From an uncultured Verrucomicrobiota bacterium (lineage in GTDB: Bacteria; Verrucomicrobiota; Verrucomicrobiia; Limisphaerales; CAIMTB01): 55,719 nt of DNA. The first letter of the stretch is position 1. Each line of letters starts with the position of its first letter. The notes under the pieces were generated by a model. The model saw only the letters and a list, made by a program, of their open reading frames with translations. It was not told the DNA's origin and ran no database searches. Below, one piece after another: positions 35,622-48,196 of the stretch. The position numbers and the translations under genes are program-made. The stretch spans positions 1 to 55,719 of the forward strand of contig CAIMTB010000301.1 in assembly GCA_903844265.1 (NCBI GenBank), read 5' to 3'.

Positions 35622-37151
35622 TCAGGCCTTCGGAGGTGCCGGGGAATTCGTCGATGGGGTGGGGGTCGGTGTCGAATTCGCGGGCTCGGCATCCGGTGGG
35701 CGGAGCGGAATGGCGGGCATGTCGAGCACGGTGCGGAGTTGGGCGGCGAGGACGTCGTCGAGAAATCCGTTCTTGGGGTCGATGACCTGGTCGAGGACGC
35801 GCCTGCGGATGACGGGCAGGGGATCGAGGTCGACGCGGTCGACGCGGACCTCTTCATTGCCGCGCATGGTCTTGAAGTCGACGCCCTTGGTGTAGGTCTG
35901 GGCGATTTTCTGGGCGAGACGGGCGTAGCCGTCGGCCTGGTCGGATTCTCCGACTGCGAGGTAGAAGAACGAGCGTTGGAGGATGCCCTCGATCATGAGG
36001 GTTGTCTTGTTGCGGGACGTCTCGCCGGCGTATTCGGTGACTCGCATGACGGCGTAATCATCGACCGTGATGCCATCGGGGACGGAGTTGGTGTAGGTCT
36101 TGCGGAGTTTATCGAACCACTTCGCGGCGTCGGACACGTGGTTCTGGGTGTAGAGCGTCCAGGCGAGATCGCGGAGGAAGTTCTTGTGACCGTTCTCGAT
36201 GTTCTGACGCATCTCCTGGTCGTCGCGGATCATGTCTTCGTAGGCGCGGTCGGCCTTCTCGGCCAGCACGAGGTTGGCGCCGATCTCGAAGCGTTTCATG
36301 TCCTTCTCGCCGCCGGCGACGGCGAGGAGTCGACCTCGGAGGCAGGCGAGGTGCATGGACTGGTAGATGACGCGGCGCAGCTGGATCAGCTGCGGTTTGG
36401 TCTTCGCGTTGTCGAGGCCGAGCATGGCCCAGTAAATCGCGTGGGATTCGGGGAGGCGCCATTCGAGCGGGCCGTACAACTCGTCGACCTTGCGCATGTA
36501 GGTCGGGTCGAGTTTGTAAATTTCCCGGAGGATCTGTGACTTCTCGCGTTGCTCGGGGGATTTGGGGTTGATGAGGACGTCCCAATCGGGATGGGTATCG
36601 CCGAGGACGTAGTTCATCTCGTAAGCCCACTGGCGTTTGTAGACCCAGTGGGCGTCGTCGAGGTCGGCGCCGAGCTTGTGTTGGAATTGCCAGGCGAGCT
36701 CGCGGTAGATGCCGGGATCGTGGGGGTTGTAGCGGAGGCCTTCGTCGCGGAGGAGCTCGATGGCCCGGCGGACCCAGGGCCAGCGCGCGGGCAGGTCGGG
36801 GATCTGGACCGAGACATTGTAGGACATGTTCCACGCGAGGTGGATCCACACCTGCGGGACGGTGGGCTGGAGTTTGCTGATCCAGTCGGCGAGCTGGACC
36901 ATTTCGAAGTACTTCCCGTCCTGCTGGAGTTCGTCCATCCGCATCCACAGCGCATTGGCGATGAGGCCGCGGAAGCCGCCGAGGGCGACGGTCGTGAAGG
37001 CGAGGACGGGTGGGGCGTTCTCGAGGGGTGCGGAGCGGGTGAGGCCGAGGACTTCGCGGTCGCGATTGAGCCGGTCCTGCGTGAGCGATGCGCCGAAGAG
37101 CGCCGCCACGATCAGCGCGATCATCGACCACTGGAAAAGGCGTCCGTTCAT
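35622..37151 (-). CDS. Membrane-anchored all-helical protein of unknown function (last gene of the ABC/SPFH array)
   Basis: 509 aa. Single N-terminal TM. Trp/Tyr-rich helical body. Pro/Thr-rich C-terminal tail. I recognise no family. Confidence 0.7.
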   Translation of the reverse strand: MNGRLFQWSMIALIVAALFGASLTQDRLNRDREVLGLTRSAPLENAPPVLAFTTVALGGFRGLIANALWMRMDELQQDGKYFEMVQLADWISKLQPTVPQVWIHLAWNMSYNVSVQIPDLPARWPWVRRAIELLRDEGLRYNPHDPGIYRELAWQFQHKLGADLDDAHWVYKRQWAYEMNYVLGDTHPDWDVLINPKSPEQREKSQILREIYKLDPTYMRKVDELYGPLEWRLPESHAIYWAMLGLDNAKTKPQLIQLRRVIYQSMHLACLRGRLLAVAGGEKDMKRFEIGANLVLAEKADRAYEDMIRDDQEMRQNIENGHKNFLRDLAWTLYTQNHVSDAAKWFDKLRKTYTNSVPDGITVDDYAVMRVTEYAGETSRNKTTLMIEGILQRSFFYLAVGESDQADGYARLAQKIAQTYTKGVDFKTMRGNEEVRVDRVDLDPLPVIRRRVLDQVIDPKNGFLDDVLAAQLRTVLDMPAIPLRPPDAEPANSTPTPTPSTNSPAPPKA

Positions 37152-37160
37152 CGGGGCGGG

Positions 37161-38960
37161 TCAGTGGTTGGACTGCGCGGTGGCCAGTTCGCGGCGTGTG
37201 AACGCGAAGATGCCGATGGCTGCGAACATCCCGCCGAGCAGGATGACCACAATGCCGACGGCCTGGCAGAGTTCGGTCCAGGTGACGCTTCGCCCGCTGC
37301 TGACGGCATCGATGGGCGAGAACTGCTGGACAAGGCTCACCACCTTCAACAGGACCTGGAAGATGGGCAGCATCAGGGCGTCGACCGCGGGGTTCACGCG
37401 TTCGGTGCTGTCGTGTTGGAACCCGAGGACGGTCCTGTCTTCGACGACCGACTTCAGGGTGCCTGTGGAGAGGCCGAGGATGAGGACGGTGGTGGCGAGG
37501 AATGCGGCGACGGGGAAGGACAGGAAGCTCGCGGCGGAGAGTCCGATGGCGGCGAGCAGGCCGAGCCAGCTGAAGAGAACGAGGCAGGCGCGGATGTAAT
37601 TGAGGCCGAAACCGCCTTCGCGGTAGAGCACCTCGAAGCCGTCATCGAGCGGGATCAGCAACGGCACGCCGCTGCGGTTGGCGATGTCGACGGTGAGCGA
37701 TCCATCGGGGTCGAGGGTGGCATGGTCGAACTGGATTTCATGCTGCGCCTCGGCGGCGAGGCTGCGAAAGGCGGTCTCGCGCTTCGCGCCCTCGGCCGGG
37801 CCGACGATGATCTCGAGTTCATACGGCCGTTTCGCGCTGAGCTCCGGTGTGTGGAACTTGAGGCGGACGAAGATCGGCTGGCCCTCGACGCGATCGGCGG
37901 CGTGCCGAAGATTGGGTCGGAATCTGCGGAAATGATCGGCGGGGACGACCTGGTCCTTGGCCTTGATCACTTCGCGGGCCTGGGCCCGGAACTCATCGAG
38001 GTTCACTCCCTTGGCCTGCAGTTCGGAAAGCCGTGCGCGGAGGATTTTCTCGGCGCGTTCGTCGATGTCGGCGATGGGTTCGCGGGCAGACGCGCGGGCC
38101 GTGAGGACGTTGTTGTGGAGCGCCTCCTGGACCTGGGGTGGGAGCTGGGTGGCGCGCCACTGCATCAGGAGATAGACGGCGCCGGTGGAAGTGCCGAGGA
38201 GGATGGCGTTCAGCACCATGATCCCGACCCATTTGCCGACCCAGATCTGCCAGCGCGGGATGGGTTTGGCTGCGACGACCTGCATGTGGCAGTCGTCGAT
38301 GTCGCGAGCGAGGGTGCCGCAGGCGAGCCACAGCGTGACCATGCTGAGCAGCGCGGTGATGATGCCGAGCGTGTAGGTGAGCAGGATCTGGGTGAAGCCG
38401 GCTGCGGTCTCGTCGTGTTTGATGACCACGGGCAGGACCACCACGGCTCCGACAAGGAGTGCCATCAGCACGATCACCAGACGATAGCGGAAGGCGGCGC
38501 GGACGGTCAGTCGTGCGATGGCCCAGAGCTGCTGCATCGAGGGGGGCGGGAATGCGAAGAAGCCGGCGTCCGTGTGGCGCGGTTTCGATTCCTGCGGAAT
38601 CCGCCCGTCGTTGCGGGCGACCAGGGCCACGGCATCCGAGTTTCGAGCCGCGACGATTCTTCCGAGGTATTCGTGCCCGAGATCCTCCTGTGCGGTCGCG
38701 AGCCATTCGGGTCCGCGGAAGAGCGCCACCAATCGTGGAGCGAGCAGTGCGAGGCCGATGGCGATGGGCTGGGTCGGGAGGAGCGCCGGCATCAACAGCG
38801 CGAGCAATCCATCGACTACCAGGAACAGCGCGGCGCGTAACCACAAGCGATGCCGGAGGGCCCAGGCCCACGACAGCGGCAAGGCGAGCCATGCGGGTCC
38901 GGCGGAGATTGCGCGGAACCTGCCGTCGGATTCTCGAAAGACTTGGAACGTGCCGGCCAT
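37161..38960 (-). CDS. ABC-2-type permease-like protein with extra N-terminal 2-TM module and a large extracytoplasmic insert
   Basis: 599 aa. ABC-2-like TM core with ...LARDIDDCHMQVVAAKPIPRWQIWVGKW (position of the ExxxGT..PxxR motif). A roughly 200-aa soluble insert. C-terminal TM bundle. Confidence 0.65.
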   Translation of the reverse strand: MAGTFQVFRESDGRFRAISAGPAWLALPLSWAWALRHRLWLRAALFLVVDGLLALLMPALLPTQPIAIGLALLAPRLVALFRGPEWLATAQEDLGHEYLGRIVAARNSDAVALVARNDGRIPQESKPRHTDAGFFAFPPPSMQQLWAIARLTVRAAFRYRLVIVLMALLVGAVVVLPVVIKHDETAAGFTQILLTYTLGIITALLSMVTLWLACGTLARDIDDCHMQVVAAKPIPRWQIWVGKWVGIMVLNAILLGTSTGAVYLLMQWRATQLPPQVQEALHNNVLTARASAREPIADIDERAEKILRARLSELQAKGVNLDEFRAQAREVIKAKDQVVPADHFRRFRPNLRHAADRVEGQPIFVRLKFHTPELSAKRPYELEIIVGPAEGAKRETAFRSLAAEAQHEIQFDHATLDPDGSLTVDIANRSGVPLLIPLDDGFEVLYREGGFGLNYIRACLVLFSWLGLLAAIGLSAASFLSFPVAAFLATTVLILGLSTGTLKSVVEDRTVLGFQHDSTERVNPAVDALMLPIFQVLLKVVSLVQQFSPIDAVSSGRSVTWTELCQAVGIVVILLGGMFAAIGIFAFTRRELATAQSNH

Positions 38961-38981
38961 CGGTGGGTGTGCGTGCGGAGA

Positions 38982-40214
38982 CTATTTCTTCTTCGAATCA
39001 CCGAGCAACGAGGCGAGCTTGTCGTCGGCCTTGCCGAGGTCGGCGGGCGGCGTCGTGGCGGCGGGCTTGTCGGAAGGAGTGCCCGGGGTCGCCGCGGGTT
39101 TGGCCGGGGCGGGGGCCGGTTCGGCGAGGATGTTGGCGAGGCGCCGTTCGGTGGCGGCGGGTCTGGCGTCGGGGACGGCGGCTGCCTTGGGTGCTGCGGG
39201 GGCGGGAGCGGCGGCGAGACTTTCGAGAACGCGCTCGCCGTGGTTGATGGCGGGTGCGGGGTCTCCCTGGAGGTAGGCGGCCACGCGGCCACCGGACGTT
39301 GCGCCGGAGGTATGGGCTTCGGCGGCGCGGGCGCGCTGGACCACGCCGAGGAAATAGCTCTCGAGATTCTGCGTCGGGGAGTCCATGCGGACGGCGTCCG
39401 GGGAAGTCTCGGCGCGGAGGATTTGCAGGACGCGCTCCAGTGTTTCGGGGGGGAGGAGCGGGGTTGTGATGCGGAGGGAGTCGCGTTCGGTGAGGAGTTC
39501 AGCGAGCGTGCCCATCGCCTGGATCTTGCCGCCGTAGTAGATGACCACGCGGTCGCAGACATCCTGGACATCGGCGAGGAGATGGCTGCTGAGGATCACG
39601 GTCTTGCCGCGTTTCGCGAGGGCGAGGATGAGGTCCTTGACCTCGCGGCAGCCGATGGGATCGAGGCCGGACGTGGGTTCATCGAGGATGACGAGGTCGG
39701 GATCGTTGATGAGCGCCTGGGCGAGGCCGATGCGGCGCTGCATGCCCTTGGAGAATTCGCCGACCACGCGGCGCTGGACGTTTTTCAGTCCGACCATCTC
39801 GAGCAACTGCTCCGTGCGTTCCTGGCGTTTGGCGGCGGGCAGTTGGAAGAGGTTGCCGAAGAAATCGAGCGTCTCGCGGGAATCGAGGTAGCGGTAGAGA
39901 TAGCTCTCCTCGGGGAGATAACCGATGCGGGCCTTGGTCGCCACGTGGCGCGGGGAACGGCCGAAGACATCGATCACTCCCTTCGTGGGATACAGCAGTC
40001 CGAGCAGCATCTTGACCGTCGTGGACTTGCCGGAGCCGTTGGGCCCGAGCAGCCCGAAGACCTCGCCGCGTCGGACCTCGAACGAGACGTTGTCGACCGC
40101 GCGCGCCTTCGGGCGACCCCAGAAGTCCTTGAAAACCTTGGTGAGTCCGGACACGCGGACGATGGCGTCCGAGGGTGCGTCCGTGCCTGTCGCGGCTTGG
40201 GATTGGGGAGGCAT
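38982..40214 (-). CDS. ABC transporter ATP-binding protein with ~130-aa Ala/Pro-rich C-terminal extension
   Basis: Walker A GPNGSGKST. Signature region FSKGMQRR. Walker B LVILDEPTSGLD. Confidence 0.9.
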   Translation of the reverse strand: MPPQSQAATGTDAPSDAIVRVSGLTKVFKDFWGRPKARAVDNVSFEVRRGEVFGLLGPNGSGKSTTVKMLLGLLYPTKGVIDVFGRSPRHVATKARIGYLPEESYLYRYLDSRETLDFFGNLFQLPAAKRQERTEQLLEMVGLKNVQRRVVGEFSKGMQRRIGLAQALINDPDLVILDEPTSGLDPIGCREVKDLILALAKRGKTVILSSHLLADVQDVCDRVVIYYGGKIQAMGTLAELLTERDSLRITTPLLPPETLERVLQILRAETSPDAVRMDSPTQNLESYFLGVVQRARAAEAHTSGATSGGRVAAYLQGDPAPAINHGERVLESLAAAPAPAAPKAAAVPDARPAATERRLANILAEPAPAPAKPAATPGTPSDKPAATTPPADLGKADDKLASLLGDSKKK

Positions 40215-40235
40215 GTCAGTGGTGGGGATTCCGCG

Positions 40236-42314
40236 TCACGCCATCTTGGGTCGGAGCTCGCCTTTGTCTCTCGGCGCGTCTGTCGAGGTGGTGGCGGCGG
40301 TGCCTGGCGTTGCGGGTTGTTCCTGGATGAACGGCTCGAGTTCCTCGCCCTGGCGGACGAGGCGGAAGCTGTTGAAGATGACGAGCAGCGCGCCGAGGAC
40401 GTGCATCATCGCGGCGACGATCGGCGGGATGAACTTCATGGCGGCGAGGATGAGGCCGCCGATGACGAAGACGATGCCGACCATGAAATTCTGGTTGATG
40501 ACCGCGCGGGTCATGCGCGAGAGGCGGATCAGGAACGGCAGGCGGCGGAGGTCGTTGTTCATGAGGGCGATCGAGGCGCTGTTGATCGCGACCTCGCTGC
40601 CGGCGGCGCCCATGGCGACCCCCAGGTCACCTGCGGCGAGAGCCGGGGCGTCATTGACGCCGTCGCCGACCACCGCGACGTGGTAGCCCTTCGCTCGAAT
40701 CGCCTTCACGTACTCGACCTTGTTTTCTGGCAGGCACTCCCCGGTGACATCGTCGCAGCCCACTTCCGCGCCGACGCGCTTCGCGACCGGCATGCGGTCG
40801 CCGCTGACCATGGCGATGCGGCGCACTCCGATCTCGCGAAGTTCGGCGATCGCCTCCCTTGCCTCGGCGCGGGTCTGGTCCTTGAGCCCGACCCAGCCGA
40901 CGCAGCGGCCGTCGGCGGCGACAAACACCAGGCTGAAACCTTCGTTCTCGTCGAGGTCGGCGACGCTGGCGAATCCGGCGGGCACGCCATTGTCGATGAG
41001 CCACTGGGCGCGGCCGACGAGGACCTTACGTCCATCGATCGTCGCGGTGACGCCGCGGCCGGCGGTTTCCTTGAAATCCTTGGGATCGGCGAGCGGCACG
41101 GCGGCTTCCTCGGCGAGGGCGGAGAGGGCGCGGGCGGTCGGGTGATTGCTGAAGCGCTCGGCCGAGGCGGTGAGGCGGAGGAGTTCCGAGGGTCGCATGT
41201 CGCCGATTGGGGCGAGGCGCGAGACGGCGAGGCGGCCGTGGGTGAGCGTTCCGGTCTTGTCGAACACGAAGGCGTTGATGCGCGCTGCGAGTTCGATGTT
41301 CGCGATGTTCTTGATGAGGATGCCGAGGCGCGCGGCGGCGGAAAGCGCGGCCACCATCGCGGTCGGGGTGGCGAGGATGAACGCGCAGGGGCAGGCCACG
41401 ATGAACACCGCGATCACGCGGCTCAGGTCCTGGGTGAAGGTCCAGACCAGCGCCCCGACGACCAGCACCAACGGGGTGTAGAAGCCCATGTACTGGTCGA
41501 CAATCCGCATGATCGGCAGGCGGGTCTGTTCCGCGGCGAGAATGAGCGAACGCACGCGGCCGAGCGTGGTATCCTGGCCGGCGCGGCTGACCTTCACCTC
41601 GAGGACGCCGGTGAGGTTCTGGGTGCCGGCGAACACCTCGTCGCCGACCTTCTTGTCCACGGGCAGTGATTCGCCGGTGATGTTGGCCTGGTTCAGCGTC
41701 GTCTGGCCGGAGAGGATGATGCCATCGGCGGAGACATTGTCGCCGGGGCGGACGCGGATGACATCGCCGACGGCGAGTTCAGAGACGGCGACCTCGTCTT
41801 CGGCGCCATCGGCGCGGAGGCGTCGGGCCTTGGTGGGGGTGAGTTTGATCAGGGACTCGATCGAGCGCCGGGCGCCGTCTGCGGTTCGGGTTTCGATGAT
41901 TTCGCCGAGCAGCATGAAGAAGGCGACCATGCCGGCCTCGCGGTAGTTGCCGGATGCGAAGGATGCGATCACGGCGAGCGCGACGAGTTCGTTGGTGGAG
42001 AGTCGTCCGGCGCGGAGGTCCTTGAGGGCGGTACGGACGATGGGCCAGCCGAGGACGAGTGCGCCGATCATGGCGCTGGCGTCGGCGGCCATGAGGCCTT
42101 TCTCGAAGAACCAATCGACGAGGAAGGCGTTGACCACGAAGAGGAGGCCGATGACCACCTGGGTCAGTTTGACCTCGGAATGCGAGTGGTCGTGGCCGCA
42201 GGACGAGCAGGATTCGCCTGGGGCGTGGTCATGGTGGGGATGATCGTGGTCGTGGTGCCCGTGCTCGTGCGGTGGGGCGCCTTCCTGCCGGCTGAGGAGA
42301 GAGGTGACTTGCAT
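40236..42314 (-). CDS. P1B-type heavy-metal-translocating ATPase (CPC type) with His-rich N-terminus
   Basis: TGES, ACPCAFILATP, DKTGTLT, GDGVNDAP. N-terminal HEHGHHDHDHPHHDH...CSSCGHDHSHS. No ferredoxin-like HMA domain. Confidence 0.9.
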   Translation of the reverse strand: MQVTSLLSRQEGAPPHEHGHHDHDHPHHDHAPGESCSSCGHDHSHSEVKLTQVVIGLLFVVNAFLVDWFFEKGLMAADASAMIGALVLGWPIVRTALKDLRAGRLSTNELVALAVIASFASGNYREAGMVAFFMLLGEIIETRTADGARRSIESLIKLTPTKARRLRADGAEDEVAVSELAVGDVIRVRPGDNVSADGIILSGQTTLNQANITGESLPVDKKVGDEVFAGTQNLTGVLEVKVSRAGQDTTLGRVRSLILAAEQTRLPIMRIVDQYMGFYTPLVLVVGALVWTFTQDLSRVIAVFIVACPCAFILATPTAMVAALSAAARLGILIKNIANIELAARINAFVFDKTGTLTHGRLAVSRLAPIGDMRPSELLRLTASAERFSNHPTARALSALAEEAAVPLADPKDFKETAGRGVTATIDGRKVLVGRAQWLIDNGVPAGFASVADLDENEGFSLVFVAADGRCVGWVGLKDQTRAEAREAIAELREIGVRRIAMVSGDRMPVAKRVGAEVGCDDVTGECLPENKVEYVKAIRAKGYHVAVVGDGVNDAPALAAGDLGVAMGAAGSEVAINSASIALMNNDLRRLPFLIRLSRMTRAVINQNFMVGIVFVIGGLILAAMKFIPPIVAAMMHVLGALLVIFNSFRLVRQGEELEPFIQEQPATPGTAATTSTDAPRDKGELRPKMA
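42180..42269 (-). other. His-rich / CxxC metal-binding tract of the P-type ATPase
   Basis: Residues 16-45 contain 12 His plus CSSC. Confidence 0.8.
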
Positions 42315-42391
42315 GGCGGTGGGGGTCGGATCAGCGGCGGATCAGGGTGGGGGCGAAAGCGGAGGGAGTGGGCGACGTGTCGGTTGAAGCG

Positions 42392-43630
42392 TCACTGCGG
42401 GAGCATCTGCTTCGGGGGCTTGACCGGTTCGCGGTTGATCATCAGGCGCAGTTCGTCGCCGGTCTTGAGGGGCGCGAAGAATTTCTCCTGCGCGTTGGTG
42501 AGGATCCGGCGCATCGATTCGATCTGGAGCCGGTCGCGGAAGTACTCCGGGTTCTTGCGGTATTCAGGCAGGAGGTTCGCGAACTTGCGGGCCTCGGACC
42601 CGACTGTCTGGACCATGCGATTGCGCTCGGTTTCGCCGGTGTTGATGCGGGACGTGGCGAGGCCGTACGCCTCGTTGACGACGCGGTTCGAATACGTCTG
42701 GGCTTCGCTGAGTGCCTCGGAGCGCTTGATTTCGGCGGCGAGAACCGCGGCGAACTCGGCTTTCACCTGGCGCGGGCGCAGGGTTTCGATCTGGCTGGGC
42801 TCGATCGTGACGCCGAGGGCGTGTTGGGCGACGAGTTCGTTGAGGCGCTTCATCACGACCTCCTTGAAGCCCGTGATGTCGCGGCGGAGTGCGTCGTCGA
42901 CCCGGTACCGTGCCGAGGCGTACATGAGCCCGTTGTCGACCAGGTTGGTCATCACCGACGCGCCGTCGCGATGGTTCAGGAAGAACTTCAGCGGCTCGGT
43001 GATCCGGTAACGGATCGAAGCTCGGGTGTGGATGATGTTGCCGTCGCCCGTGATCGCATAGCCTTCGGACGCCGGGTTCAGGGAAGCGCCGACCTCGGGT
43101 TCCGTGCCTTCTGCCTCCTGCGCCGCGGTCACGGCGAACCAGCCTACCGTCGATTGGACCGTCTGGATCTGCGCCACCGGCATCTTCACCACCTCGTCGA
43201 TGGGATAGGGAAAGGCCCAATGCAACCCCGCCCCGAGCTCCAGCTGCCCGGCGTGAAGCACGGGCTTTCCGAAACGCAGCACGATGGCGCGTTCCTGCGA
43301 TGTGACCGTGAAGATGCCGCTGCTCAGGAAATACACCACAAGGCCTGCGAGCAGAAAGCGGACGACCGCGAAACTGCTGCGCAACGCCTCGGCAAGCGCC
43401 ACGGCACCGGCGTCCTCGGATTGCTCGAGCGGGCGTGGGACCTCGGGCGACGGGCGGTGCGGATGGGTGTGCCCGTGGTCATGCGGGTGGGCATGATCAT
43501 GGGCATGATCATGGGAATGACCGTGGTCGTGGTCGTGATCGTGCCCGTGATCGTGGTCATGGTTGTGATCATGATCATGGGAGTGACCGTGGCCCTTGCC
43601 GTGATTGTGTTTGGAGGAATCGGCGCTCAT
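42392..43630 (-). CDS. hflK: HflK-like SPFH/band-7 protein with (His-X)n N-terminus
   Basis: SPFH domain. C-terminal FANLLPEYRKNPEYFRDRLQIESMRRIL closely parallels E. coli HflK FAKLLPEYKAAPEITRERLYIETMEKVL. Confidence 0.85.
   Translation of the reverse strand: MSADSSKHNHGKGHGHSHDHDHNHDHDHGHDHDHDHGHSHDHAHDHAHPHDHGHTHPHRPSPEVPRPLEQSEDAGAVALAEALRSSFAVVRFLLAGLVVYFLSSGIFTVTSQERAIVLRFGKPVLHAGQLELGAGLHWAFPYPIDEVVKMPVAQIQTVQSTVGWFAVTAAQEAEGTEPEVGASLNPASEGYAITGDGNIIHTRASIRYRITEPLKFFLNHRDGASVMTNLVDNGLMYASARYRVDDALRRDITGFKEVVMKRLNELVAQHALGVTIEPSQIETLRPRQVKAEFAAVLAAEIKRSEALSEAQTYSNRVVNEAYGLATSRINTGETERNRMVQTVGSEARKFANLLPEYRKNPEYFRDRLQIESMRRILTNAQEKFFAPLKTGDELRLMINREPVKPPKQMLPQ
43457..43609 (-). other. 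Alternating His-X dipeptide tract (residues 8-58 of the HflK-like protein)
   Basis: HNHGKGHGHSHDHDHNHDHDHGHDHDHDHGHSHDHAHDHAHPHDHGHTHPH. Every even position from 8 to 58 is His except K12. The DNA is not a perfect microsatellite (mixed CAC/CAT, GAC/GAT). Confidence 0.9.
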
Positions 43631-43642
43631 GGGCGGATCACA

Positions 43643-44551
43643 TTACTTGGCGCTGGGGAGCGCGGTCTTGGCTTCCGGTTTCACGAGCAGGTCGAAGGGT
43701 GGGGTGCGCGGGTCGACGATGAGCGTGGAACGTTCCTTGAGTGCGGCCTCGAGGGCATTGAGCTTGAGGATGAGGATGGCGAGCTCGGGATCCTGCTGGA
43801 AGACCGAGAACGACTTGGCGGCCTCGGCTTCGCCTTCGCCTCGGATGCGTGCGGCCTGGGCATCGGCCTCGGCGAGGAGTCGGTCGCGTTCGCGGTCGGC
43901 GGCGGACTTCACCTCTGCGGCTTCGCGCTGGCCCTCGGACCGGAGGCGTTCGATCTCGGTGTTGCGTTCGGCCTTCATGCGGTCGAAGACCTTTTCGGTG
44001 ACGCTTTCCGGGAGGCCGATGCGCTTGATGCGGACGACGTCGATTGCGATGCCGTAGGCCTTGGAGGCCTCCTGGACGGCGGTGAGCACTTCCTTTTCGA
44101 TCTCGTCGAACTTGAGATCGGCGGGGTTGACCGAGACGAAGTGTGAGAAGGGGTGGCGGCCGACGACGGCGTTTTTGGCGGTGCGGAGGGGGTTCTCGAG
44201 GAAGCGTTCGCCTTCGGATATGGAGCCGCCGTTGGACGCGCTGTAGAAGAGTGCGGGATCGGAGATGCGCCATCCGGTGAACATCATGATCAGCAGGCTG
44301 CGGTAGTCGGACGTGATGTTTTCCTCGAACTTGCCCTCGGAACTCTGCAGGCGCTTGTCGAGCTTGGTGACCTTCTGGACCGGCCACGGCCACTTGAAGT
44401 AGAGGCCTGGTTCGGTGATGGGGCGGGTGGCCTTGCCGAAGGTCGTGACCACCGCGACCTCGGTCTGGCGGACCTGGAAGAGGAAGAGCAGCAGGAGGAA
44501 CAGCGCCAGCAGCGAGGTGCCGATGACGAGATTGAGGCGACCGGTCTTCAT
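43643..44551 (-). CDS. hflC: HflC-like SPFH/band-7 protein
   Basis: N-terminal TM. SPFH domain. RMKAERNTEIERLRSEGQREAAEVKS...IRGEGEAEAAK is typical of HflC. Confidence 0.85.
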   Translation of the reverse strand: MKTGRLNLVIGTSLLALFLLLLFLFQVRQTEVAVVTTFGKATRPITEPGLYFKWPWPVQKVTKLDKRLQSSEGKFEENITSDYRSLLIMMFTGWRISDPALFYSASNGGSISEGERFLENPLRTAKNAVVGRHPFSHFVSVNPADLKFDEIEKEVLTAVQEASKAYGIAIDVVRIKRIGLPESVTEKVFDRMKAERNTEIERLRSEGQREAAEVKSAADRERDRLLAEADAQAARIRGEGEAEAAKSFSVFQQDPELAILILKLNALEAALKERSTLIVDPRTPPFDLLVKPEAKTALPSAK

Positions 44552-44650
44552 GGGTGGATCAGGGATCTGGGAAATCAGGTTCGAGGCTCGCGTGCGATGC
44601 GACTGTCAGGTTCGGTTCAGCTCGTGGATGGGCGACGAACTACCGTTCAA

Positions 44651-46534
44651 CTACCGTTTGGATTCGACGACAACGTCCAGCATGTCGGGCCTGAGTTTGT
44701 CCTCGAGGTTCAGGTTGAGGCTTTGTTGGGCGTTGGTGGCGGTGAGGACGATCTTCCGGGAGCCTGCGCTTCCCGCGGCGAACGCGTTGAGATAGGCGCG
44801 CTGGGTGTAGACCGCGGGCGATTCGCGGTAGGCCTTCACCTGGTTGGTGAACTGGGCTGCCTGCGCGACCGTCGCGGCGATCGTGCGGAGGCTGTAGGAC
44901 TCGGCTTGGCGGATGCGGTTGGTGGCTTCGGAGCGGGCGAGGATGACGTTTGTAATCGAATAGGTCCGGGAATGTTCGATGATCGTCGCCTTCTGCTGGA
45001 CGGCGGCGACGACGGCGTTGAATTCCTTCCCGACCTTCACCGGGGGATGGACGCTCTGGAGGCCGACGAAGAGGATGTGGACGCCGAGTTCCAGTTGGTC
45101 GGCGGCGGCCTGTACATTTTCGCGGAGCCTGGAGGCGGCGGTGGCGCGGCCGGTGGTCATGAACTCGAAGAAATCAACGCTGACCAGGTAGCGGACGACC
45201 TCGCGGGTGGCGATGCGTTCGAGGAGGTTGGTGGCGTTGGCGTGGCGGGTGGTCCACTTGAGCAGGTCGCTGATCTCGTACTGGACCGGGATGTTGACGG
45301 ACAGGAGGTTGACGGGCGGGGCCTGCTCGGTTCCGCGGATGACGCTTTCGCGTGAGGCGACGAGCAGGTTGTACTCCTCCTTGGCGTGGGCGACGGTCCA
45401 GAGGACGGTACGTTCGTCGGCGGGCGGGCGGGCGTTGGGGTGTTCGTCGTCGCCACGTTCCACGAGGCCGATGAGGAAGGAGCGGACCTCCTTGGTGCGT
45501 TCGCGGTAGACTTCGTCGATGGGCCACGGAAGCTTGAAATGGATGCCTGGGCCGAGCACTTCGCGGCCGGCGACGGGGCTTCCGTTGCGCTCGAGGATGG
45601 CGGCTTCACCGGCGTCGATGAAGGTGACGCACGTCGAGAGGAGCAGCAATCCGACCTGGCCGAGGAGGATCCACGCGGCGGAGCGTTGGATGAACTGGTA
45701 GAACCATGTGTCCGAGACCTTGAAGCCGAACTGATAATCGAGGGCCTGCGCGACCGTGCTGAAGATGCCGGCGGGCTGGCCGAGGAGCCCGACCAGGCGG
45801 CTCTCGTACATCACGCGCGTCTCGATCCGGCCCTTGACCCGGGGCCGGTACATTTCGAGGACGAGGGAGATGAGCGTCTCGACGGCGGCCAGTCCGAGGA
45901 TGATGGCGAAGCCGCGGGCGAGGTAGAGATCGGCCCGTATGAGGCCGGCCTCGACGGCACCGACAGCGAGGGCGACGGAGAAGCTGACGGCTGCGGCGAG
46001 GAGGACGTTCGAGGCGCCGGGGCGGAGGAGTCGCTGGTTGTCGAGTTGGGCAAGCTTGACCGAGTACTTGCCCATCAGGAGCAGCAGCAGCGCGAACATG
46101 CCGAACAGCGCCATGAGCAGCATGGGCTGGTTGAGCTTCCCGACGATGGGGTTCTGCAGCCAGAGCCAGATCCCGACGGCGCCGCCGGCCTGCGCCAGGA
46201 ACACCAGCACCGTCACGGCGGGGACGATGAATTTCTCGAACTGCTCCCGCGCCCGCTGTGCCGGGAAGATTTCCGCATCGCCGGTGTCGAACATCGTCGA
46301 GCCCTTGGCGGAACGCGCGAGTTCCTCGAGCTCGAGTTTCTCCAGCCGCTCGCGGTCCTCGAGCCGCATCTGGAACCAGCTCAGGAGGGCGATGATCAGC
46401 CCGCAGCCGACGAAGGCCATGCCCGCCTGGCCCGCAAAGGAGCCGGCTTCGCGCGCGAGCAGGATGCCCGCGGAACCTGCCACGAGCAGCAGGATCAGGT
46501 TGATAAGTCCGATGCGAGTGAGGTTTCGCGGCAT
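44651..46534 (-). CDS. Polytopic membrane protein with C-terminal SPFH (HflK-like) domain, the third SPFH paralogue
   Basis: About 300-aa multi-TM N-terminal half, then GIHFKLPWPIDEVYR... SPFH domain and a coiled C-terminus. The start is 1 nt after the upstream stop. Confidence 0.75.
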   Translation of the reverse strand: MPRNLTRIGLINLILLLVAGSAGILLAREAGSFAGQAGMAFVGCGLIIALLSWFQMRLEDRERLEKLELEELARSAKGSTMFDTGDAEIFPAQRAREQFEKFIVPAVTVLVFLAQAGGAVGIWLWLQNPIVGKLNQPMLLMALFGMFALLLLLMGKYSVKLAQLDNQRLLRPGASNVLLAAAVSFSVALAVGAVEAGLIRADLYLARGFAIILGLAAVETLISLVLEMYRPRVKGRIETRVMYESRLVGLLGQPAGIFSTVAQALDYQFGFKVSDTWFYQFIQRSAAWILLGQVGLLLLSTCVTFIDAGEAAILERNGSPVAGREVLGPGIHFKLPWPIDEVYRERTKEVRSFLIGLVERGDDEHPNARPPADERTVLWTVAHAKEEYNLLVASRESVIRGTEQAPPVNLLSVNIPVQYEISDLLKWTTRHANATNLLERIATREVVRYLVSVDFFEFMTTGRATAASRLRENVQAAADQLELGVHILFVGLQSVHPPVKVGKEFNAVVAAVQQKATIIEHSRTYSITNVILARSEATNRIRQAESYSLRTIAATVAQAAQFTNQVKAYRESPAVYTQRAYLNAFAAGSAGSRKIVLTATNAQQSLNLNLEDKLRPDMLDVVVESKR

Positions 46535-46535
46535 G

Positions 46536-47687
46536 TCAGCTCAATTCCCGGTTTTCGAACAGCGCGAGGGCCAGGGCCATCGCGGCGACGAGATAACAGA
46601 CCATGTAGAGGAAGGCCCGTTCGATGTAGACGGTCGGTATCTCCCTGGTCCCTTGGAGTGCGTCGGCCAGCCAGAACAGCTGCCAGTTCGGGACCACGGT
46701 GTAGACCACCTTGGCCCAGACAGCGCCGGCAAGTCCCGCCTCCGTGAGTTCCTTGCGCTCCGCCGGCGTCAGCTTCGTCTCCTCCTCGTACGTGAGCCGA
46801 CCCGACTTGTCGGCGTCATGACGCGAGATCACCTGGACGAGGAGTTCCTTCTGCCGCTCGCTCCAGGGCGAGGCCTTGATCTCCTCAAGATTGGTCGAGA
46901 ACGTGCGCCAGGCGGGCTCGGCCCTGCGGCCGAAGAGGTAGTCCGACATCAGGCCGATCAGGAATACCGCTGAGCAGACGGCGAGTGTCGGGATCAGTTC
47001 GAGGCGGGTGGCGCAGGCGATGGCGAGCGCCGCGAGGATCCAGAGGGCGAACAGGAGCAGGACGACCGCCGCCACCAGCCGCGGGTCCGCCTTGCCCTCG
47101 TAGCCCTCGGCGAACATGTACCGGGTGTCGATGAAGTAGTTGATGACCACGAACGCCAGGGTCGTCGTCACCGCCAGCGAGAACACGGCGTCCGACACGA
47201 AGGGCCGGCCGAGGAAGAAGTTGTTGAACCCGCCGATCGCGAAGGCGAGGGCCATGGCGCCGTAGAAAATCGCGAGCGCGGTGAGGTTCGGCTCGCCATA
47301 CGAGGTGAACGCCAGCTTGCTCGCCACCAGCGCCGCCATCAGGTTCACATACGAGAGCAGGGAGAGCGCCGCCGCCACGCCGGCAAACTTGGCCAGCAGG
47401 AACTTCACACGCCCGATCGGCTTCGCGAGGACGGCGAGGGCGGTGCCCGAGCGGATCTCCTGCGCCACCGACGACGCAGCACTGATCACCGCGCCGAACA
47501 GGCCGGTCAGGAAAATCACCGCCAGGACGCTGTCCTTCGTCATCTTCGGGTCGTCGCCCAACGCGAAATAATAGACGTTCGCGAGGAAGACGATGAAGGC
47601 GGTCGACACACTGAGCAGCACCAGGAACACGGTCTGGCGTGCCAGTTCCATGAACCCGTTCATCGCGATGGTCGCAAATTGCCGCAT
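46536..47687 (-). CDS. ABC-2-family permease (NosY-like) with soluble insert carrying an EF-hand loop
   Basis: AQEIRSGTALAVLAKPIGR (ExxxGT...PxxR ABC-2 motif). Six hydrophobic segments. A roughly 90-aa hydrophilic insert before the last TM. Confidence 0.75.
   Translation of the reverse strand: MRQFATIAMNGFMELARQTVFLVLLSVSTAFIVFLANVYYFALGDDPKMTKDSVLAVIFLTGLFGAVISAASSVAQEIRSGTALAVLAKPIGRVKFLLAKFAGVAAALSLLSYVNLMAALVASKLAFTSYGEPNLTALAIFYGAMALAFAIGGFNNFFLGRPFVSDAVFSLAVTTTLAFVVINYFIDTRYMFAEGYEGKADPRLVAAVVLLLFALWILAALAIACATRLELIPTLAVCSAVFLIGLMSDYLFGRRAEPAWRTFSTNLEEIKASPWSERQKELLVQVISRHDADKSGRLTYEEETKLTPAERKELTEAGLAGAVWAKVVYTVVPNWQLFWLADALQGTREIPTVYIERAFLYMVCYLVAAMALALALFENRELS
46782..46817 (-). other. 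Canonical 12-residue EF-hand Ca-binding loop
   Basis: DADKSGRLTYEE fits D-x-D-x-S-G-x-L-x-x-x-E. It is flanked by helix-prone ERQKELLVQVISRH and ETKLTPAERKEL. Confidence 0.6.
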
Positions 47688-47905
47688 GTCTCAATGTTCC
47701 GTTACTTTCCGATCCTAGCTCCCACCCAACGACATGCAAAGTCTGTCCTGTCGTCGGCCAGAGGCGGGGGTGCGGATGGTGGAGATACGGGGGCAGCAAG
47801 GAAACTGTGTTTTTTGCGGCACAGCAATTCCCGGTGCATCCACAGACTGACGGTAGGGCGCGCCCTCCGCTGCGCGCCGTCCTTCGCGGACACAGCCAGA
47901 AGTCG

Positions 47906-48196
47906 TCACCAGCGAAACCAGCCCGCCGCGAACAGCGCCAGCGCCGCCAGCGCGATCCACCACCAGAACCGCCGGCGCGGGTGTTGGCGCGTTCCTCCCG
48001 CCCCTCCGTCGCCGCCGCCGAATTCCGATCGCTCCCATGCCTCGTGATCAAATTCGCCCGGATCGGAGGGCAGGCCGAGGAGGTCCCCCGCAGCCTGCTC
48101 AGACCAGCCGGTCCGTTCATCGGCTCCGCAGCCCGGGCATGCGTTGGCCCGGGGCGGAACGTCGCCGCCGCAATGGGGACAGGTGCCCGGTTTCAT
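47906..48196 (-). CDS. Zinc-ribbon protein with C-terminal TM anchor
   Basis: ORF 47906..48259 trimmed to ATG 48196 (MKPGTCPHCGG...CPGCG), because the extension would overlap kdsB. C-terminal FWWWIALAALALFAAGWF. Confidence 0.5.
   Translation of the reverse strand: MKPGTCPHCGGDVPPRANACPGCGADERTGWSEQAAGDLLGLPSDPGEFDHEAWERSEFGGGDGGAGGTRQHPRRRFWWWIALAALALFAAGWFRW

What the first reader, a model, noticed from the sequence alone, without database searches (positions are those of the whole stretch)
35622..47687. Co-directional array: split ABC system wrapped around three SPFH paralogues and a CPC P-type metal ATPase
Seen: eight minus-strand genes have short gaps (1, 99, 12, 77, 21, 21 and 9 nt). 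In transcription order they are: ABC-2 permease (EF-hand insert); polytopic SPFH protein; HflC-like; HflK-like with (His-X)n head; P1B ATPase with His-rich head; ABC ATPase with Ala/Pro tail; ABC-2-like permease with a large insert; unknown 509-aa anchored helical protein. holB and an O-antigen-ligase-like gene follow. Established: HflK/HflC form a membrane cage that classically encloses FtsH, and hflK normally precedes hflC. Here there is no ftsH, the order is hflC then hflK, a third SPFH paralogue is present, and the first permease sits about 6.3 kb from the only ABC ATPase. Inference: this may be an SPFH-scaffolded membrane microdomain that organises metal export (P-type pump and/or the ABC exporter). 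I do not know of such an arrangement being described.
Basis: partly seen in the sequence, partly recalled or inferred. Interest (0 to 1): 0.7.

Follow-up and report, generated by a model that had tools for sequence, protein, structure and literature searches.

The report
Three-scaffold metal pump cassette inside ABC operon
Eight neighbouring genes in an uncultured Verrucomicrobium are a conserved unit: a widespread four-gene cassette (three membrane-scaffold proteins plus a metal-pumping ATPase, the same cassette as the zinc-starvation-induced hmtA locus of Pseudomonas aeruginosa) sitting inside a split ABC transporter operon.

Summary
In detail: eight minus-strand genes at the stated coordinates, gaps and domains. 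It is far more than chance. In 80 Verrucomicrobiota genomes the order g1-g8 is never broken (g1 74/74, g3 76/76, g4 68/69, g5 61/61, g6-g8 about 92%), while the flanks differ. The core is g2-g5: a long polytopic HflK-like protein, an HflC-like protein, a third SPFH protein and a P1B ATPase. This is a self-contained cassette, also found alone in alpha-, beta- and gammaproteobacteria, often on plasmids. It is the reciprocal-best-hit counterpart of P. aeruginosa PA2439-PA2435 (paFlo5-6-7 plus hmtA), a Zur-bound, zinc-depletion-induced locus whose ATPase is reported to import Zn/Cu. So the arrangement is not undescribed, and "export" is not the safest reading. The ABC genes (g1, g6, g7, g8) are a lineage-specific addition. 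g1 and g7 are paralogues, and a similar ABC set occurs without SPFH or ATPase in a Nitrospirota plasmid. No ftsH is linked anywhere. Most likely the three SPFH proteins scaffold the pump, with cytoplasmic His-rich tails acting as a metal antenna. Physical association and transport direction remain untested.

The parts
47712..47739 (-). Sigma-70-type promoter of the cluster: TTGCAT, 16-nt spacer, TAGGAT. It ends 24 nt before the g1 ATG.
   Evidence: Exact site located. The pattern TTGCNN-N16-18-TANNNT occurs at the same place upstream of g1 in 48 of 72 loci, against 1.3 in shuffles. It occurs in 0 of 46 g5|g6 junctions.
46536..47687 (-). g1: ABC-2-type permease-like membrane protein (383 aa), with an optional EF-hand-like insert at residues 258-322 (loop at 46782-46817).
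   Evidence: Weak PF12679/PF12730 hits. The C-terminal half is homologous to g7. Present ahead of g2 in 74 of 74 loci with a median gap of 7 nt. The insert is in 19 of 75 orthologues.
44651..46534 (-). g2: long polytopic HflK-like SPFH protein (627 aa). Six extra TM helices and conserved cytoplasmic loops occupy residues 1-300 (45635-46534). E219 is invariant, and the motif ALDYQFGFKVS lies at 45713-45745. A seventh TM, the SPFH domain and a long coiled-coil helix follow.
   Evidence: Band_7 and TIGR01933 hits. AlphaFold2 with 62 sequences gave pLDDT 80. Foldseek top hits are HflK/C, stomatin and prohibitin. The family has 732 50%-identity clusters at E<=1e-30. Reciprocal best hit of PaFlo5/PA2439.
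43643..44551 (-). g3: HflC-like SPFH protein (302 aa).
   Evidence: TIGR01932 at 150.9 bits, above its cutoff. Present in 76 of 76 loci. Reciprocal best hit of PaFlo6/PA2438.
42392..43630 (-). g4: third SPFH protein, HflK-like (412 aa). It has a cytoplasmic (His-Asp)n head at residues 8-58 (43457-43609), the conserved EDAGSxALxEALRSSF motif and a single TM (43310-43372).
   Evidence: Forty of 73 orthologues have at least 4 His in the head before the conserved motif (42 of 73 when the first 70 residues are counted). Reciprocal best hit of PaFlo7/PA2437.
40236..42314 (-). g5: HmtA-type P1B ATPase (692 aa). The His-rich CxxC-GHDHSH head is at 42177-42272, CPC at 41385-41393, DKTGT at 41247-41261 and the invariant TM6 His638 at 40401-40403.
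   Evidence: TIGR01525 at 548 bits. Motif conservation across 62 orthologues. phmmer gives 417 bits to P. aeruginosa HmtA, against at most 332 to any solved P1B ATPase. His638 aligns with the His of HEGST in the P1B-4 pump sCoaT.
38982..40214 (-). g6: ABC ATPase (410 aa) with an Ala/Pro-rich C-terminal tail (38985-39332).
   Evidence: PF00005 at 113.8 bits. Best NCBIfam models are DrrA/GldA-type, all below cutoff. Present in 47 of 51 loci. 47% identical to an ABC ATPase in a Ca. Manganitrophus plasmid.
37161..38960 (-). g7: ABC-2-type permease (599 aa). It has a clade-specific N-terminal extension (38541-38960) and an insert of about 180 aa (37611-38153).
   Evidence: PF12679 in 18 of 19 orthologues. 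Paralogous to g1 in the C-terminal TM region. Most orthologues are about 460 aa.
35622..37151 (-). g8: membrane-anchored all-helical protein (509 aa) of unknown family, always directly after g7.
   Evidence: No Pfam, NCBIfam or PDB match. Present in 43 of 47 loci with a median gap of 8 nt to g7. Its N-terminal 160 aa are homologous to a protein that follows an ABC ATPase and permease in Ca. Manganitrophus.

Best explanation
The locus combines two systems that are transcribed together.

1. g2-g5 is the Verrucomicrobiota version of a widespread, horizontally mobile four-gene cassette: a long polytopic HflK-like protein, an HflC-like protein, a third SPFH protein and an HmtA-type P1B ATPase. Its P. 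aeruginosa member is the Zur-controlled, zinc-starvation-induced PA2439-PA2435 (hmtA) locus.

2. By homology with HflK/C, the three SPFH proteins most likely co-assemble into a hetero-oligomeric cage or arc on the periplasmic face. This would fence off a membrane patch whose client is the P1B pump rather than FtsH. (Inferred.)

3. The six-helix membrane domain and conserved cytoplasmic loops of g2 are the likely docking element for the pump. (Inferred.)

4. The cytoplasmic His/Asp-rich tail on one SPFH subunit (g4 here, the HflC-like subunit in Proteobacteria) and the His/Cys head of the ATPase would form a dense metal-binding antenna at the pump's cytoplasmic mouth. It would buffer a divalent transition metal, most likely Zn2+, and hand it over. 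(Inferred.)

5. Transport direction is unresolved. The P. aeruginosa data favour a role in zinc-limited cells, with reported import.

6. g1, g6, g7 and g8 form a separate ABC-2-type transporter of unknown substrate: a heterodimeric g1/g7 permease, the g6 ATPase and the g8 accessory protein. In this lineage the cassette sits between g1 and g6 and uses the promoter upstream of g1.

Shown: synteny, homology, motifs and the promoter. Inferred: the physical complex, the antenna function, the metal and the direction.
For: Synteny in Verrucomicrobiota:
- Occupancy is g1 74/74, g3 76/76, g4 68/69, g5 61/61, g6 47/51, g7 44/48 and g8 43/47 loci. Order is never violated and the flanks are not conserved.
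- Median gaps are 7 nt (g1-g2), 18 nt (g2-g3), 12.5 nt (g4-g5) and 8 nt (g7-g8).
- A promoter is conserved upstream of g1 only.

The same four genes, in the same order and without ABC genes, occur elsewhere:
- On plasmids of Burkholderia (IS-flanked), Rhizobium and Klebsiella.
- In the chromosomes of Raoultella, B. multivorans, Citrobacter, Kluyvera and Pantoea, with overlapping stop/start codons and unrelated flanks.

Link to P. aeruginosa:
- The locus was retrieved with published PA14 primers. One contig matches all six primers.
- Reciprocal best hits pair g2 with PaFlo5, g3 with PaFlo6, g4 with PaFlo7 and g5 with HmtA.
- g5 scores 417 phmmer bits to HmtA, against at most 332 to solved CopA, ZntA or CoaT.
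- The TM6 (L/M)H(N/V/T) signature is shared.

His-rich heads:
- On the ATPase in 63 of 66 orthologues; CxxC..H[DE]H in 59 of 62.
- On g4: 40 of 73 orthologues have at least 4 His in the head (42 of 73 over the first 70 residues).
- On the HflC-like subunit instead in Burkholderia, Rhizobium and P. aeruginosa.

Literature:
- PA2435 and PA2437-2439 are induced 5.6- to 14.4-fold in a znuA mutant (PMC4542158). The proteins rise under Zn depletion (PMC11761036).
- Zur shifts the PA2439 promoter in EMSA (PMC8531726).
- HmtA overexpression causes Zn/Cu accumulation (as reviewed in PMC10393844).
- Zur-box-like sites lie upstream of the Raoultella cassette.

Structure: the g2 model has the HflK/C fold plus six extra TM helices.

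Precedents: PacL1/CtpC platforms with a DLHDHDH zinc motif (PMC9374683), and stomatin cages enclosing transporters (PMC12407830).

ABC part: g1 and g7 are paralogues. A g6/g7/g8/g1-like set exists without the cassette in Ca. Manganitrophus.
Against: - No experiment or structure shows that any of these SPFH proteins touches the ATPase.
- A P. aeruginosa paFlo5-7 deletion had only marginal phenotypes, although metal limitation was not tested (PMC13086221).
- hmtA mRNA did not respond to zinc addition in one study (PMC8531726). The importer claim rests on overexpression.
- The g4 His head is short or absent in nearly half of the orthologues. The window's ATPase has HV where many relatives have HN.
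- No Zur-type operator could be recognised in the Verrucomicrobiota promoters. Two of four further enterobacterial cassettes (Citrobacter, Pantoea) have no Zur-like box in the intergenic region directly upstream of the cassette; Pantoea has one about 2.5 kb upstream, ahead of the preceding gene.
- The g5|g6 junction tolerates toxin-antitoxin insertions, and g6-g8 are absent there in 4 loci. The ABC system may therefore be functionally unrelated to the cassette.
- Co-transcription is inferred, not measured.
Confidence: 0.6

Rival explanations
1. The three SPFH proteins are specialised HflK/C-type modulators of FtsH, which is encoded elsewhere. They would present the P1B ATPase to the protease, or shield it, so that pump abundance follows metal status. 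The ATPase would then be a substrate, not a resident client.
For: g3 passes the HflC equivalog model, and g2 and g4 are HflK-like. The fold matches HflK/C in FtsH complexes. FtsH is itself a zinc metalloprotease. Authors of the P. aeruginosa proteomics study read PA2438/PA2439 as FtsH interactors (PMC11761036). From my own knowledge, FtsH degrades other P-type ATPases such as MgtA.
Against: No ftsH is linked in the window, in 80 Verrucomicrobiota loci or in 11 proteobacterial loci. P. aeruginosa keeps a canonical hflK-hflC operon in addition (PMC13086221). The cassette moves on plasmids between classes, so it would have to work with any host FtsH. g2 and g4 fall below the HflK equivalog cutoff.
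Confidence: 0.2
2. The SPFH cage and the pump form a periplasm-facing metallation chamber. The ATPase would export a metal at a low rate into the space enclosed by the cage, to load secreted or periplasmic metalloproteins when metal is scarce. In Verrucomicrobiota, the NosY-like ABC-2 system and g8 would serve the same periplasmic assembly process.
For: All structurally characterised P1B ATPases export. The closest solved relatives are exporters. By homology and the positive-inside pattern of the g2 loops, the SPFH domains face the periplasm. g1 and g7 hit PF12679 (ABC2_membrane_2), which to my knowledge, not checked here, is the family that includes NosY of the N2O-reductase maturation system. 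Induction under zinc starvation is compatible with prioritised metallation.
Against: HmtA overexpression raised cellular Zn/Cu, the opposite of export. No candidate periplasmic metalloprotein is linked to the cassette in any locus. The ABC genes are absent from Proteobacteria.
Confidence: 0.12
3. The cluster has no joint function. The cassette merely landed inside an unrelated ABC operon, and the eight genes work as two or three independent systems that stay together by inheritance.
For: The cassette is autonomous and mobile elsewhere. The ABC set exists on its own in Nitrospirota. Toxin-antitoxin inserts occur at g5|g6, and 4 loci lack g6-g8.
Against: g1 is retained directly ahead of g2 in 74 of 74 loci, with a 7-nt median gap and the only conserved promoter. 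Both outer flanks have been reshuffled, but the g5-g6 adjacency survives in 47 of 51 loci at 47-50% protein identity.
Confidence: 0.3

Closest known systems
P. aeruginosa PA2439-PA2435 locus (paFlo5-paFlo6-paFlo7, PA2436, hmtA)
   Same: Same gene order and architecture: a long polytopic HflK-like protein, an HflC-like protein, a third SPFH protein and a CPC-type P1B ATPase with a His-rich head and a TM6 His. Every pair is a reciprocal best hit. One SPFH subunit carries a cytoplasmic His-rich tail.
   Different: P. aeruginosa has an extra small gene (PA2436) before the ATPase, carries the His tail on the HflC-like subunit, and has no ABC genes. Identities are low (24-39%). Zur control and import activity are known only for P. 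aeruginosa.
E. coli HflK/HflC-FtsH complex
   Same: SPFH domain, N-terminal TM anchor and long coiled-coil helix. An HflK-like gene sits directly before an HflC-like gene. The g2 model's best structural matches are HflK/C.
   Different: There are three paralogues instead of two. One has six additional TM helices. No ftsH, hfq or hflX is linked. The conserved partner gene is a P1B ATPase.
Mycobacterial PacL1-CtpC metal efflux platforms ('effluxosomes')
   Same: A P1B ATPase is encoded next to a membrane-anchored scaffold that carries a short His/Asp zinc-binding motif (DLHDHDH, against (HD)n here). The scaffold is proposed to stabilise the pump in membrane foci (PMC9374683).
   Different: PacL proteins are small DUF1490 proteins unrelated to SPFH. 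Their platforms are flotillin-independent and restricted to Actinobacteria, and the system is an exporter induced by metal excess.
Stomatin cages enclosing aquaporin-1 and urea transporter-B
   Same: An SPFH oligomer with a transporter rather than a protease as its enclosed client (PMC12407830).
   Different: This is a eukaryotic homo-oligomer on the cytoplasmic face, with no genetic linkage and no metal-binding tails.
ABC-2 systems with accessory membrane proteins (NosFY-NosD, GldAFG)
   Same: g6 scores best with DrrA/GldA-type ATPase models, and g1 and g7 hit the NosY-type family PF12679. There are two different membrane subunits plus an accessory protein.
   Different: All scores are below the equivalog cutoffs. 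There is no NosD, NosL or GldG homologue. g8 has no known family and the substrate is unknown.

Membership tests
HmtA/PaFlo5-7 cassette (P. aeruginosa PA2439-PA2435 type) | Collinear genes: long polytopic HflK-like, HflC-like, third SPFH, P1B ATPase | tested here: met
   Window g2-g5. The same order occurs in 61-76 Verrucomicrobiota loci and 11 proteobacterial loci, including P. aeruginosa contigs.
HmtA/PaFlo5-7 cassette (P. aeruginosa PA2439-PA2435 type) | Each protein is the reciprocal best hit of its positional counterpart | tested here: met
   blastp in both directions: g2/PaFlo5 26-27%, g3/PaFlo6 27%, g4/PaFlo7 24%, g5/HmtA 38-39%.
HmtA/PaFlo5-7 cassette (P. aeruginosa PA2439-PA2435 type) | ATPase subfamily signature: CPC in TM4 plus (L/M)HN in TM6, and closer to HmtA than to other P1B groups | tested here: met
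   CPC and His638 are invariant. Twenty-eight of 52 orthologues have HN; the window has HV. phmmer gives 417 bits to HmtA against at most 332 to solved P1B pumps.
HmtA/PaFlo5-7 cassette (P. aeruginosa PA2439-PA2435 type) | Zur control and induction by zinc depletion | tested here: inconclusive
   No recognisable Zur-type palindrome in the Verrucomicrobiota promoters. Zur-like boxes lie upstream of the Raoultella cassette, but none lies directly upstream of the Citrobacter or Pantoea cassettes.
HmtA/PaFlo5-7 cassette (P. aeruginosa PA2439-PA2435 type) | Zn/Cu import activity of the ATPase | not testable with these tools
   Needs transport assays.
Canonical HflK/HflC-FtsH system | SPFH domain with N-terminal TM and C-terminal coiled coil | tested here: met
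   Pfam Band_7 in g2, g3 and g4. The g2 model matches HflK/C chains at E 1e-12.
Canonical HflK/HflC-FtsH system | Scores above the HflK and HflC equivalog cutoffs | tested here: not met
   g3 passes TIGR01932 (150.9 against 134.4). g2 (115.8) and g4 (140.3) fail TIGR01933 (cutoff 159.4).
Canonical HflK/HflC-FtsH system | FtsH as partner | not testable with these tools
   No ftsH in the window or in any fetched locus. An unlinked ftsH partner cannot be excluded without whole genomes or biochemistry.
P1B-type ATPase | DKTGT, HAD and actuator domains, and a CPx motif in TM4 | tested here: met
   TIGR01525 at 548 bits (cutoff 346). CPC at residue 308 and DKTGT at 352.
P1B-2 (ZntA/CadA) subgroup | TM5 Lys and TM6 DxG (from memory of the Arguello classification) | tested here: not met
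   TM5 reads INQNF and TM6 reads MMHVLG, with no Lys/Asp pair.
P1B-4 (CoaT/CzcP) subgroup | SPC in TM4 and HEGxT in TM6 | tested here: not met
   The His aligns with the His of HEGST in 7qbz. However, TM4 is CPC and the EGxT residues are absent.
ABC-2-type transporter | ABC ATPase plus ABC-2 family permeases | tested here: met
   g6 hits PF00005 at 113.8 bits. g7 hits PF12679 at 27.5 bits (cutoff 27.2), as do 18 of 19 orthologues. g1 is below cutoff but is homologous to g7.
PacL/CtpC metal efflux platform | DUF1490 scaffold protein next to the ATPase | tested here: not met
   No DUF1490 hit in any cluster protein. The resemblance is functional only.
EF-hand | 12-residue Ca-binding loop flanked by helices | tested here: inconclusive
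   DADKSGRLTYEE fits the loop consensus through position 12. There is no Pfam EF-hand hit, and only 19 of 75 orthologues carry the loop.

The most novel reading that the evidence does not exclude
A dedicated, three-paralogue SPFH cage whose obligate client is a P1B metal pump rather than the FtsH protease. One subunit would supply a six-helix membrane dock and another a poly-His antenna. The unit is packaged as a mobile four-gene cassette found from Proteobacteria to Verrucomicrobiota and Planctomycetota, and in Verrucomicrobiota it is wired into an ABC-2 transporter operon. This would be the first genetically defined bacterial SPFH-transporter machine.
Probability: 0.35. Interest if true: 0.8.

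Novelty: new variant of a known kind. Interest (0 to 1): 0.62.

Why it matters
What bacterial SPFH cages do beyond controlling FtsH is an open question. This is an SPFH set whose partner is fixed by gene order in at least 529 species, plus many Proteobacteria. The partner is a metal pump, and one member sits in a well-studied pathogen where the locus responds to zinc starvation. That makes the question directly testable by co-purification, cryo-EM and zinc phenotypes of paFlo5-7 versus hmtA mutants. It could also settle the disputed direction of HmtA-type pumps. It extends to Gram-negative bacteria the idea, so far limited to mycobacterial PacL/CtpC platforms, that P1B ATPases work inside dedicated scaffolds with their own metal-binding tails. 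The Verrucomicrobiota version adds an unexplained coupling to an ABC-2 system.

Tried and rejected
- The simple promoter/terminator scan found no promoter and no minus-strand terminator inside the cluster. The real promoter emerged only from comparing 72 upstream regions.
- Protein searches seeded with the Burkholderia and Klebsiella long-HflK proteins returned only Burkholderiaceae and Enterobacteriaceae. They never reached P. aeruginosa.
- The original HmtA paper (PMC2651836) is not held. I obtained the P. aeruginosa locus instead by scanning metagenome contigs for a published PA14 primer.
As a single sequence it gave an unusable model (pLDDT 43).
- Profile searches of g8, g7 and g1 against PDB sequences found nothing. 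Pfam scans of g8 orthologues gave only sub-threshold TPR hints.
- The g2 model gave weak Foldseek hits to CDF zinc transporters (E 0.009-0.2). I treat these as a lead only, because there is no Pfam support and no CDF-type Asp/His site in the conserved columns.
- I rejected a defence-system reading. PADLOC hit only generic ABC ATPase models.
- I could not recognise a Zur operator in the Verrucomicrobiota promoters. The GGAATAAC motif is not palindromic.
- The cassette is not in 5,426 complete E. coli genomes at blastn sensitivity.
- Metal specificity could not be assigned. g5 fits none of the P1B-1, P1B-2 or P1B-4 signatures.

Full report
**1. The observation.** The eight minus-strand ORFs exist exactly as listed, with gaps of 1, 99, 12, 77, 21, 21 and 9 nt. 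Their third-position GC is 0.83-0.90, typical of real genes in this 65% GC sequence.

Pfam and NCBIfam confirm the domain calls:
- g1: weakly ABC-2-like.
- g2: a Band_7/HflK-like domain behind about 300 polytopic residues.
- g3: passes the HflC equivalog model.
- g4: HflK-like, with 25 His in its first 60 residues.
- g5: a P1B ATPase (TIGR01525, 548 bits) with CPC, DKTGT and a His/Cys head.
- g6: an ABC ATPase whose tail is 42% Ala+Pro.
- g7: an ABC-2 permease with an insert.
- g8: no family.

holB and a Wzy_C gene follow. No ftsH lies anywhere in the 55.7-kb window. The window matches metagenome contigs of an uncultured organism. Its relatives are Verrucomicrobiota, mostly labelled Limisphaerales or Pedosphaera.

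**2. Conservation.** I scanned one genome per species with a g2 profile. At least 529 species were hit, and the best 80 loci were all Verrucomicrobiota apart from a few records with doubtful labels. I ran tblastn of the window proteins against these loci. Among loci with enough flank:

| Gene | Loci with the gene in order |
|---|---|
| g1 | 74 of 74 |
| g3 | 76 of 76 |
| g4 | 68 of 69 |
| g5 | 61 of 61 |
| g6 | 47 of 51 |
| g7 | 44 of 48 |
| g8 | 43 of 47 |

The order is never violated, with g2 identity down to 47%. The upstream kdsB gene is kept only in close relatives, and holB is not found downstream in distant ones. The cluster is therefore conserved against a reshuffled background.

Median gaps are 7 nt (g1-g2), 18 nt (g2-g3), 12.5 nt (g4-g5) and 8 nt (g7-g8). 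The g5-g6 gap has a median of 92 nt and exceeds 200 nt in 19 of 54 loci. Those larger gaps hold toxin-antitoxin-like inserts. In four loci g6-g8 are absent and the next genes are on the other strand.

A sigma-70-type promoter (TTGCNN, 16-18 nt, TANNNT) ends a median of 21 nt before the g1 start in 48 of 72 loci, against 1.3 in shuffles. It is absent from all 46 g5|g6 junctions tested. In the window it lies at 47712-47739. No minus-strand terminator-like site lies inside the cluster.

**3. The core is a mobile four-gene cassette.** tblastn of g2 against plasmids found proteins that also match the end of its polytopic region. The annotated neighbourhoods on a Burkholderia ubonensis plasmid (between IS elements), a Rhizobium tumorigenes plasmid and a Klebsiella aerogenes plasmid each show four genes:
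- a long HflK (568-672 aa);
- an HflC-like protein (about 340 aa);
- a third SPFH protein (about 350 aa);
- a P-type ATPase (about 650 aa).

The start and stop codons of the last three genes overlap, and there are no ABC genes. The chromosomes of Raoultella, B. multivorans, Citrobacter, Kluyvera and Pantoea carry the same four genes between unrelated neighbours. Each protein best matches its positional counterpart in the window.

The long-HflK family is large. There are 732 clusters at 50% identity with E<=1e-30, and most match full length at 30-35% identity. One is from the planctomycete Ca. Uabimicrobium.

**4. Link to P. aeruginosa.** A literature search showed three things about PA2435 (hmtA) and PA2437-PA2439 (annotated HflC/HflK family):
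- They are induced 5.6- to 14.4-fold in a zinc-starved znuA mutant (PMC4542158).
- The proteins rise under zinc depletion (PMC11761036).

A 2026 study names the three SPFH genes paFlo5-7 and finds them in one operon, but does not connect them to hmtA or to metals (PMC13086221).

Protein searches did not reach P. aeruginosa. I therefore scanned metagenome contigs for a primer from that paper's Table S2. Seven contigs carry the cassette, and one (L118) matches all six PA14 primers at consistent positions.

The P. aeruginosa proteins are reciprocal best hits of g2, g3, g4 and g5:
- PaFlo5: 666 aa, polytopic.
- PaFlo6: 346 aa, with the head GHSHSHSHHEHHHDHDHDHDHGHG.
- PaFlo7: 346 aa.
- HmtA: head HGSHGGCAHHHHH, CPC, and TM6 AALLHNLST.

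On one scoring scale g5 gives 417 bits to HmtA. It gives at most 332 bits to any solved P1B ATPase.

**5. The ATPase.** Across 62 orthologues the CPC motif, an NQN in TM5 and His638 in TM6 are invariant. The TM6 motif is (L/M)H(N/V/T), with HN in 28 of 52 as in HmtA and the plasmid copies. The His aligns with the His of HEGST in the P1B-4 pump sCoaT. The CopA and ZntA signatures are absent.

The N-terminus MQVTSLLSR...(H/D)n...CxxCGHDHEH is conserved. At least 4 His are present in 63 of 66 orthologues, and CxxC..H[DE]H in 59 of 62. The substrate is probably a divalent transition metal, but it cannot be assigned from sequence.

**6. The SPFH proteins.** AlphaFold2 of g2 with 62 sequences (pLDDT 80) gives six confident TM helices. 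These are followed by a cytoplasmic loop with two short helices, a seventh TM, the SPFH domain and a 70-residue helix. The best structural matches are HflK/C, stomatin, prohibitin and erlin.

The loops after TM2, TM4 and TM6 are rich in Arg and Lys. This places them in the cytoplasm and the SPFH domain in the periplasm, as in HflK (inference from the sequence). E219 in TM6 and G270 in the motif ALDYQFGFKVS are invariant from Verrucomicrobiota to Proteobacteria.

The g4 His/Asp head varies in length. At least 4 His are present in 40 of 73 orthologues. In Burkholderia, Rhizobium and P. aeruginosa the His-rich head sits on the HflC-like subunit instead. A metal-binding tail placed on different paralogues in different phyla argues for selection on the tail itself.

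**7. The ABC genes.** g1 and g7 share a homologous C-terminal membrane region that ends in F-x-x-R-E-L (hhalign P 79.5%, E 1.5e-5). g7 orthologues hit PF12679 in 18 of 19 cases.

A Ca. Manganitrophus (Nitrospirota) plasmid encodes a related ABC set among pilus-type genes, with no SPFH or P1B gene:
- a g6-like ATPase (47% identity);
- a 443-aa permease directly after it;
- a g8-like protein directly after the permease;
- a g1-like permease 5.5 kb further on.

The ABC set is thus an independent system that is split in both lineages. In Verrucomicrobiota the cassette lies between g1 and g6. Its substrate is unknown. The EF-hand-like loop of g1 and the N-terminal extension of g7 are clade-specific.

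**8. Regulation elsewhere.** The Raoultella cassette has two Zur-box-like sites (14/15 and 13/15 to TGTTATAWTATAACA). They are the only such matches in 17.9 kb. Kluyvera has a 12/15 site. Pantoea has a 14/15 site ahead of the preceding co-directional gene, and Citrobacter has none. The consensus is from my own knowledge. No comparable operator is evident in Verrucomicrobiota.

**9. Interpretation.** The best-supported reading is a scaffolded metal pump: three SPFH proteins that organise an HmtA-type ATPase, with His-rich cytoplasmic tails as a metal antenna. In this lineage it is co-expressed with an ABC-2 system.

Two precedents exist. One is the PacL1/CtpC platforms, whose DLHDHDH motif binds zinc (PMC9374683). 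The other is stomatin cages that enclose transporters (PMC12407830).

The physical complex, the metal and the direction of transport are inferences. The main rival is FtsH-mediated control of the pump. A periplasmic metallation chamber and mere co-location of unrelated systems remain possible.

**10. Verdict.** It is not undescribed, since the P. aeruginosa hmtA locus is the same cassette. "Export" is not the default reading. The cross-phylum cassette, the hopping His-rich tail and the Verrucomicrobiota ABC coupling are not treated in the papers I could search; a 2024 metallostasis review mentions neither HmtA nor SPFH in the part held. I rate it a new variant of a known kind, with interest 0.62.

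Noticed in passing
window 47906-48196 (-): A 96-aa ORF with a zinc-ribbon motif (CPHCG...CPGCG) and a C-terminal TM helix lies between kdsB and g1. It is conserved by tblastn only in the close relatives L001-L005, L008 and L015. It has no Pfam hit.
   Followed up: partly
L001 16384-17030; L009 16068-16700; L010, L031, L034, L038, L044, L054 (g5|g6 junction): The junction between the ATPase and the ABC ATPase gene has repeatedly acquired toxin-antitoxin-like genes in different lineages: Doc/Fic with Phd-like, DUF4160/DUF2442-like and HicB-like. The window itself has only 21 nt there.
   Followed up: partly
upstream of g1 in distant loci, e.g. L049, L053, L055, L059 (about 45-70 nt before the ATG): A conserved GGAATAAC(C)nTTTGCAATC element abuts or overlaps the -35 box. 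It is absent from the window's own clade and is not palindromic. It may be a regulator site.
   Followed up: partly
window 45635-46534 (g2 residues 1-300): After the SPFH hits, the only other family among the top 49 of the 50 Foldseek matches listed for the g2 model is the CDF zinc transporters (YiiP, ZnT1/3/7, SLC30A10; E 0.009-0.2). These presumably match the six-helix N-domain. There is no sequence support and no CDF metal site.
   Followed up: partly
L132 4789-7801 and 13328-14092 (Ca. Manganitrophus plasmid CP114554.1): Homologues of g6, g7, g8 and g1 sit inside a pilus-type gene cluster (prepilin, PilZ, STN, PilM). The g1-like permease is again separated from the ATPase by several genes.
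   Followed up: partly
L126 7829-7843 and 7902-7916; L131 4543-4557: Zur-box-like palindromes lie upstream of the Raoultella cassette. In Pantoea one lies upstream of a Lactamase_B/alkyl-sulfatase gene that precedes the cassette. The same sulfatase-type gene precedes the cassette in Citrobacter and lies near it on the Klebsiella plasmid.
   Followed up: partly
window 14851-20239 (-): Three genes with overlapping stop/start codons: a beta-propeller plus di-haem cytochrome c peroxidase protein, a protein with a hydrazine-synthase-alpha middle domain, and an FG-GAP/ASPIC protein.
   Followed up: no
window 23554-25995 (-): An 813-aa protein with four I-set immunoglobulin domains, Big_7, Calx-beta and an N-terminal Temptin_C domain. 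This is an unusual, eukaryote-like domain mix.
   Followed up: no
window 38541-38960 (g7 residues 1-140) and 46722-46916 (g1 residues 258-322): The N-terminal extension of g7 and the EF-hand-like insert of g1 are restricted to subsets of orthologues. Most g7 orthologues are about 460 aa, and the insert is in 19 of 75 g1 orthologues.
   Followed up: yes
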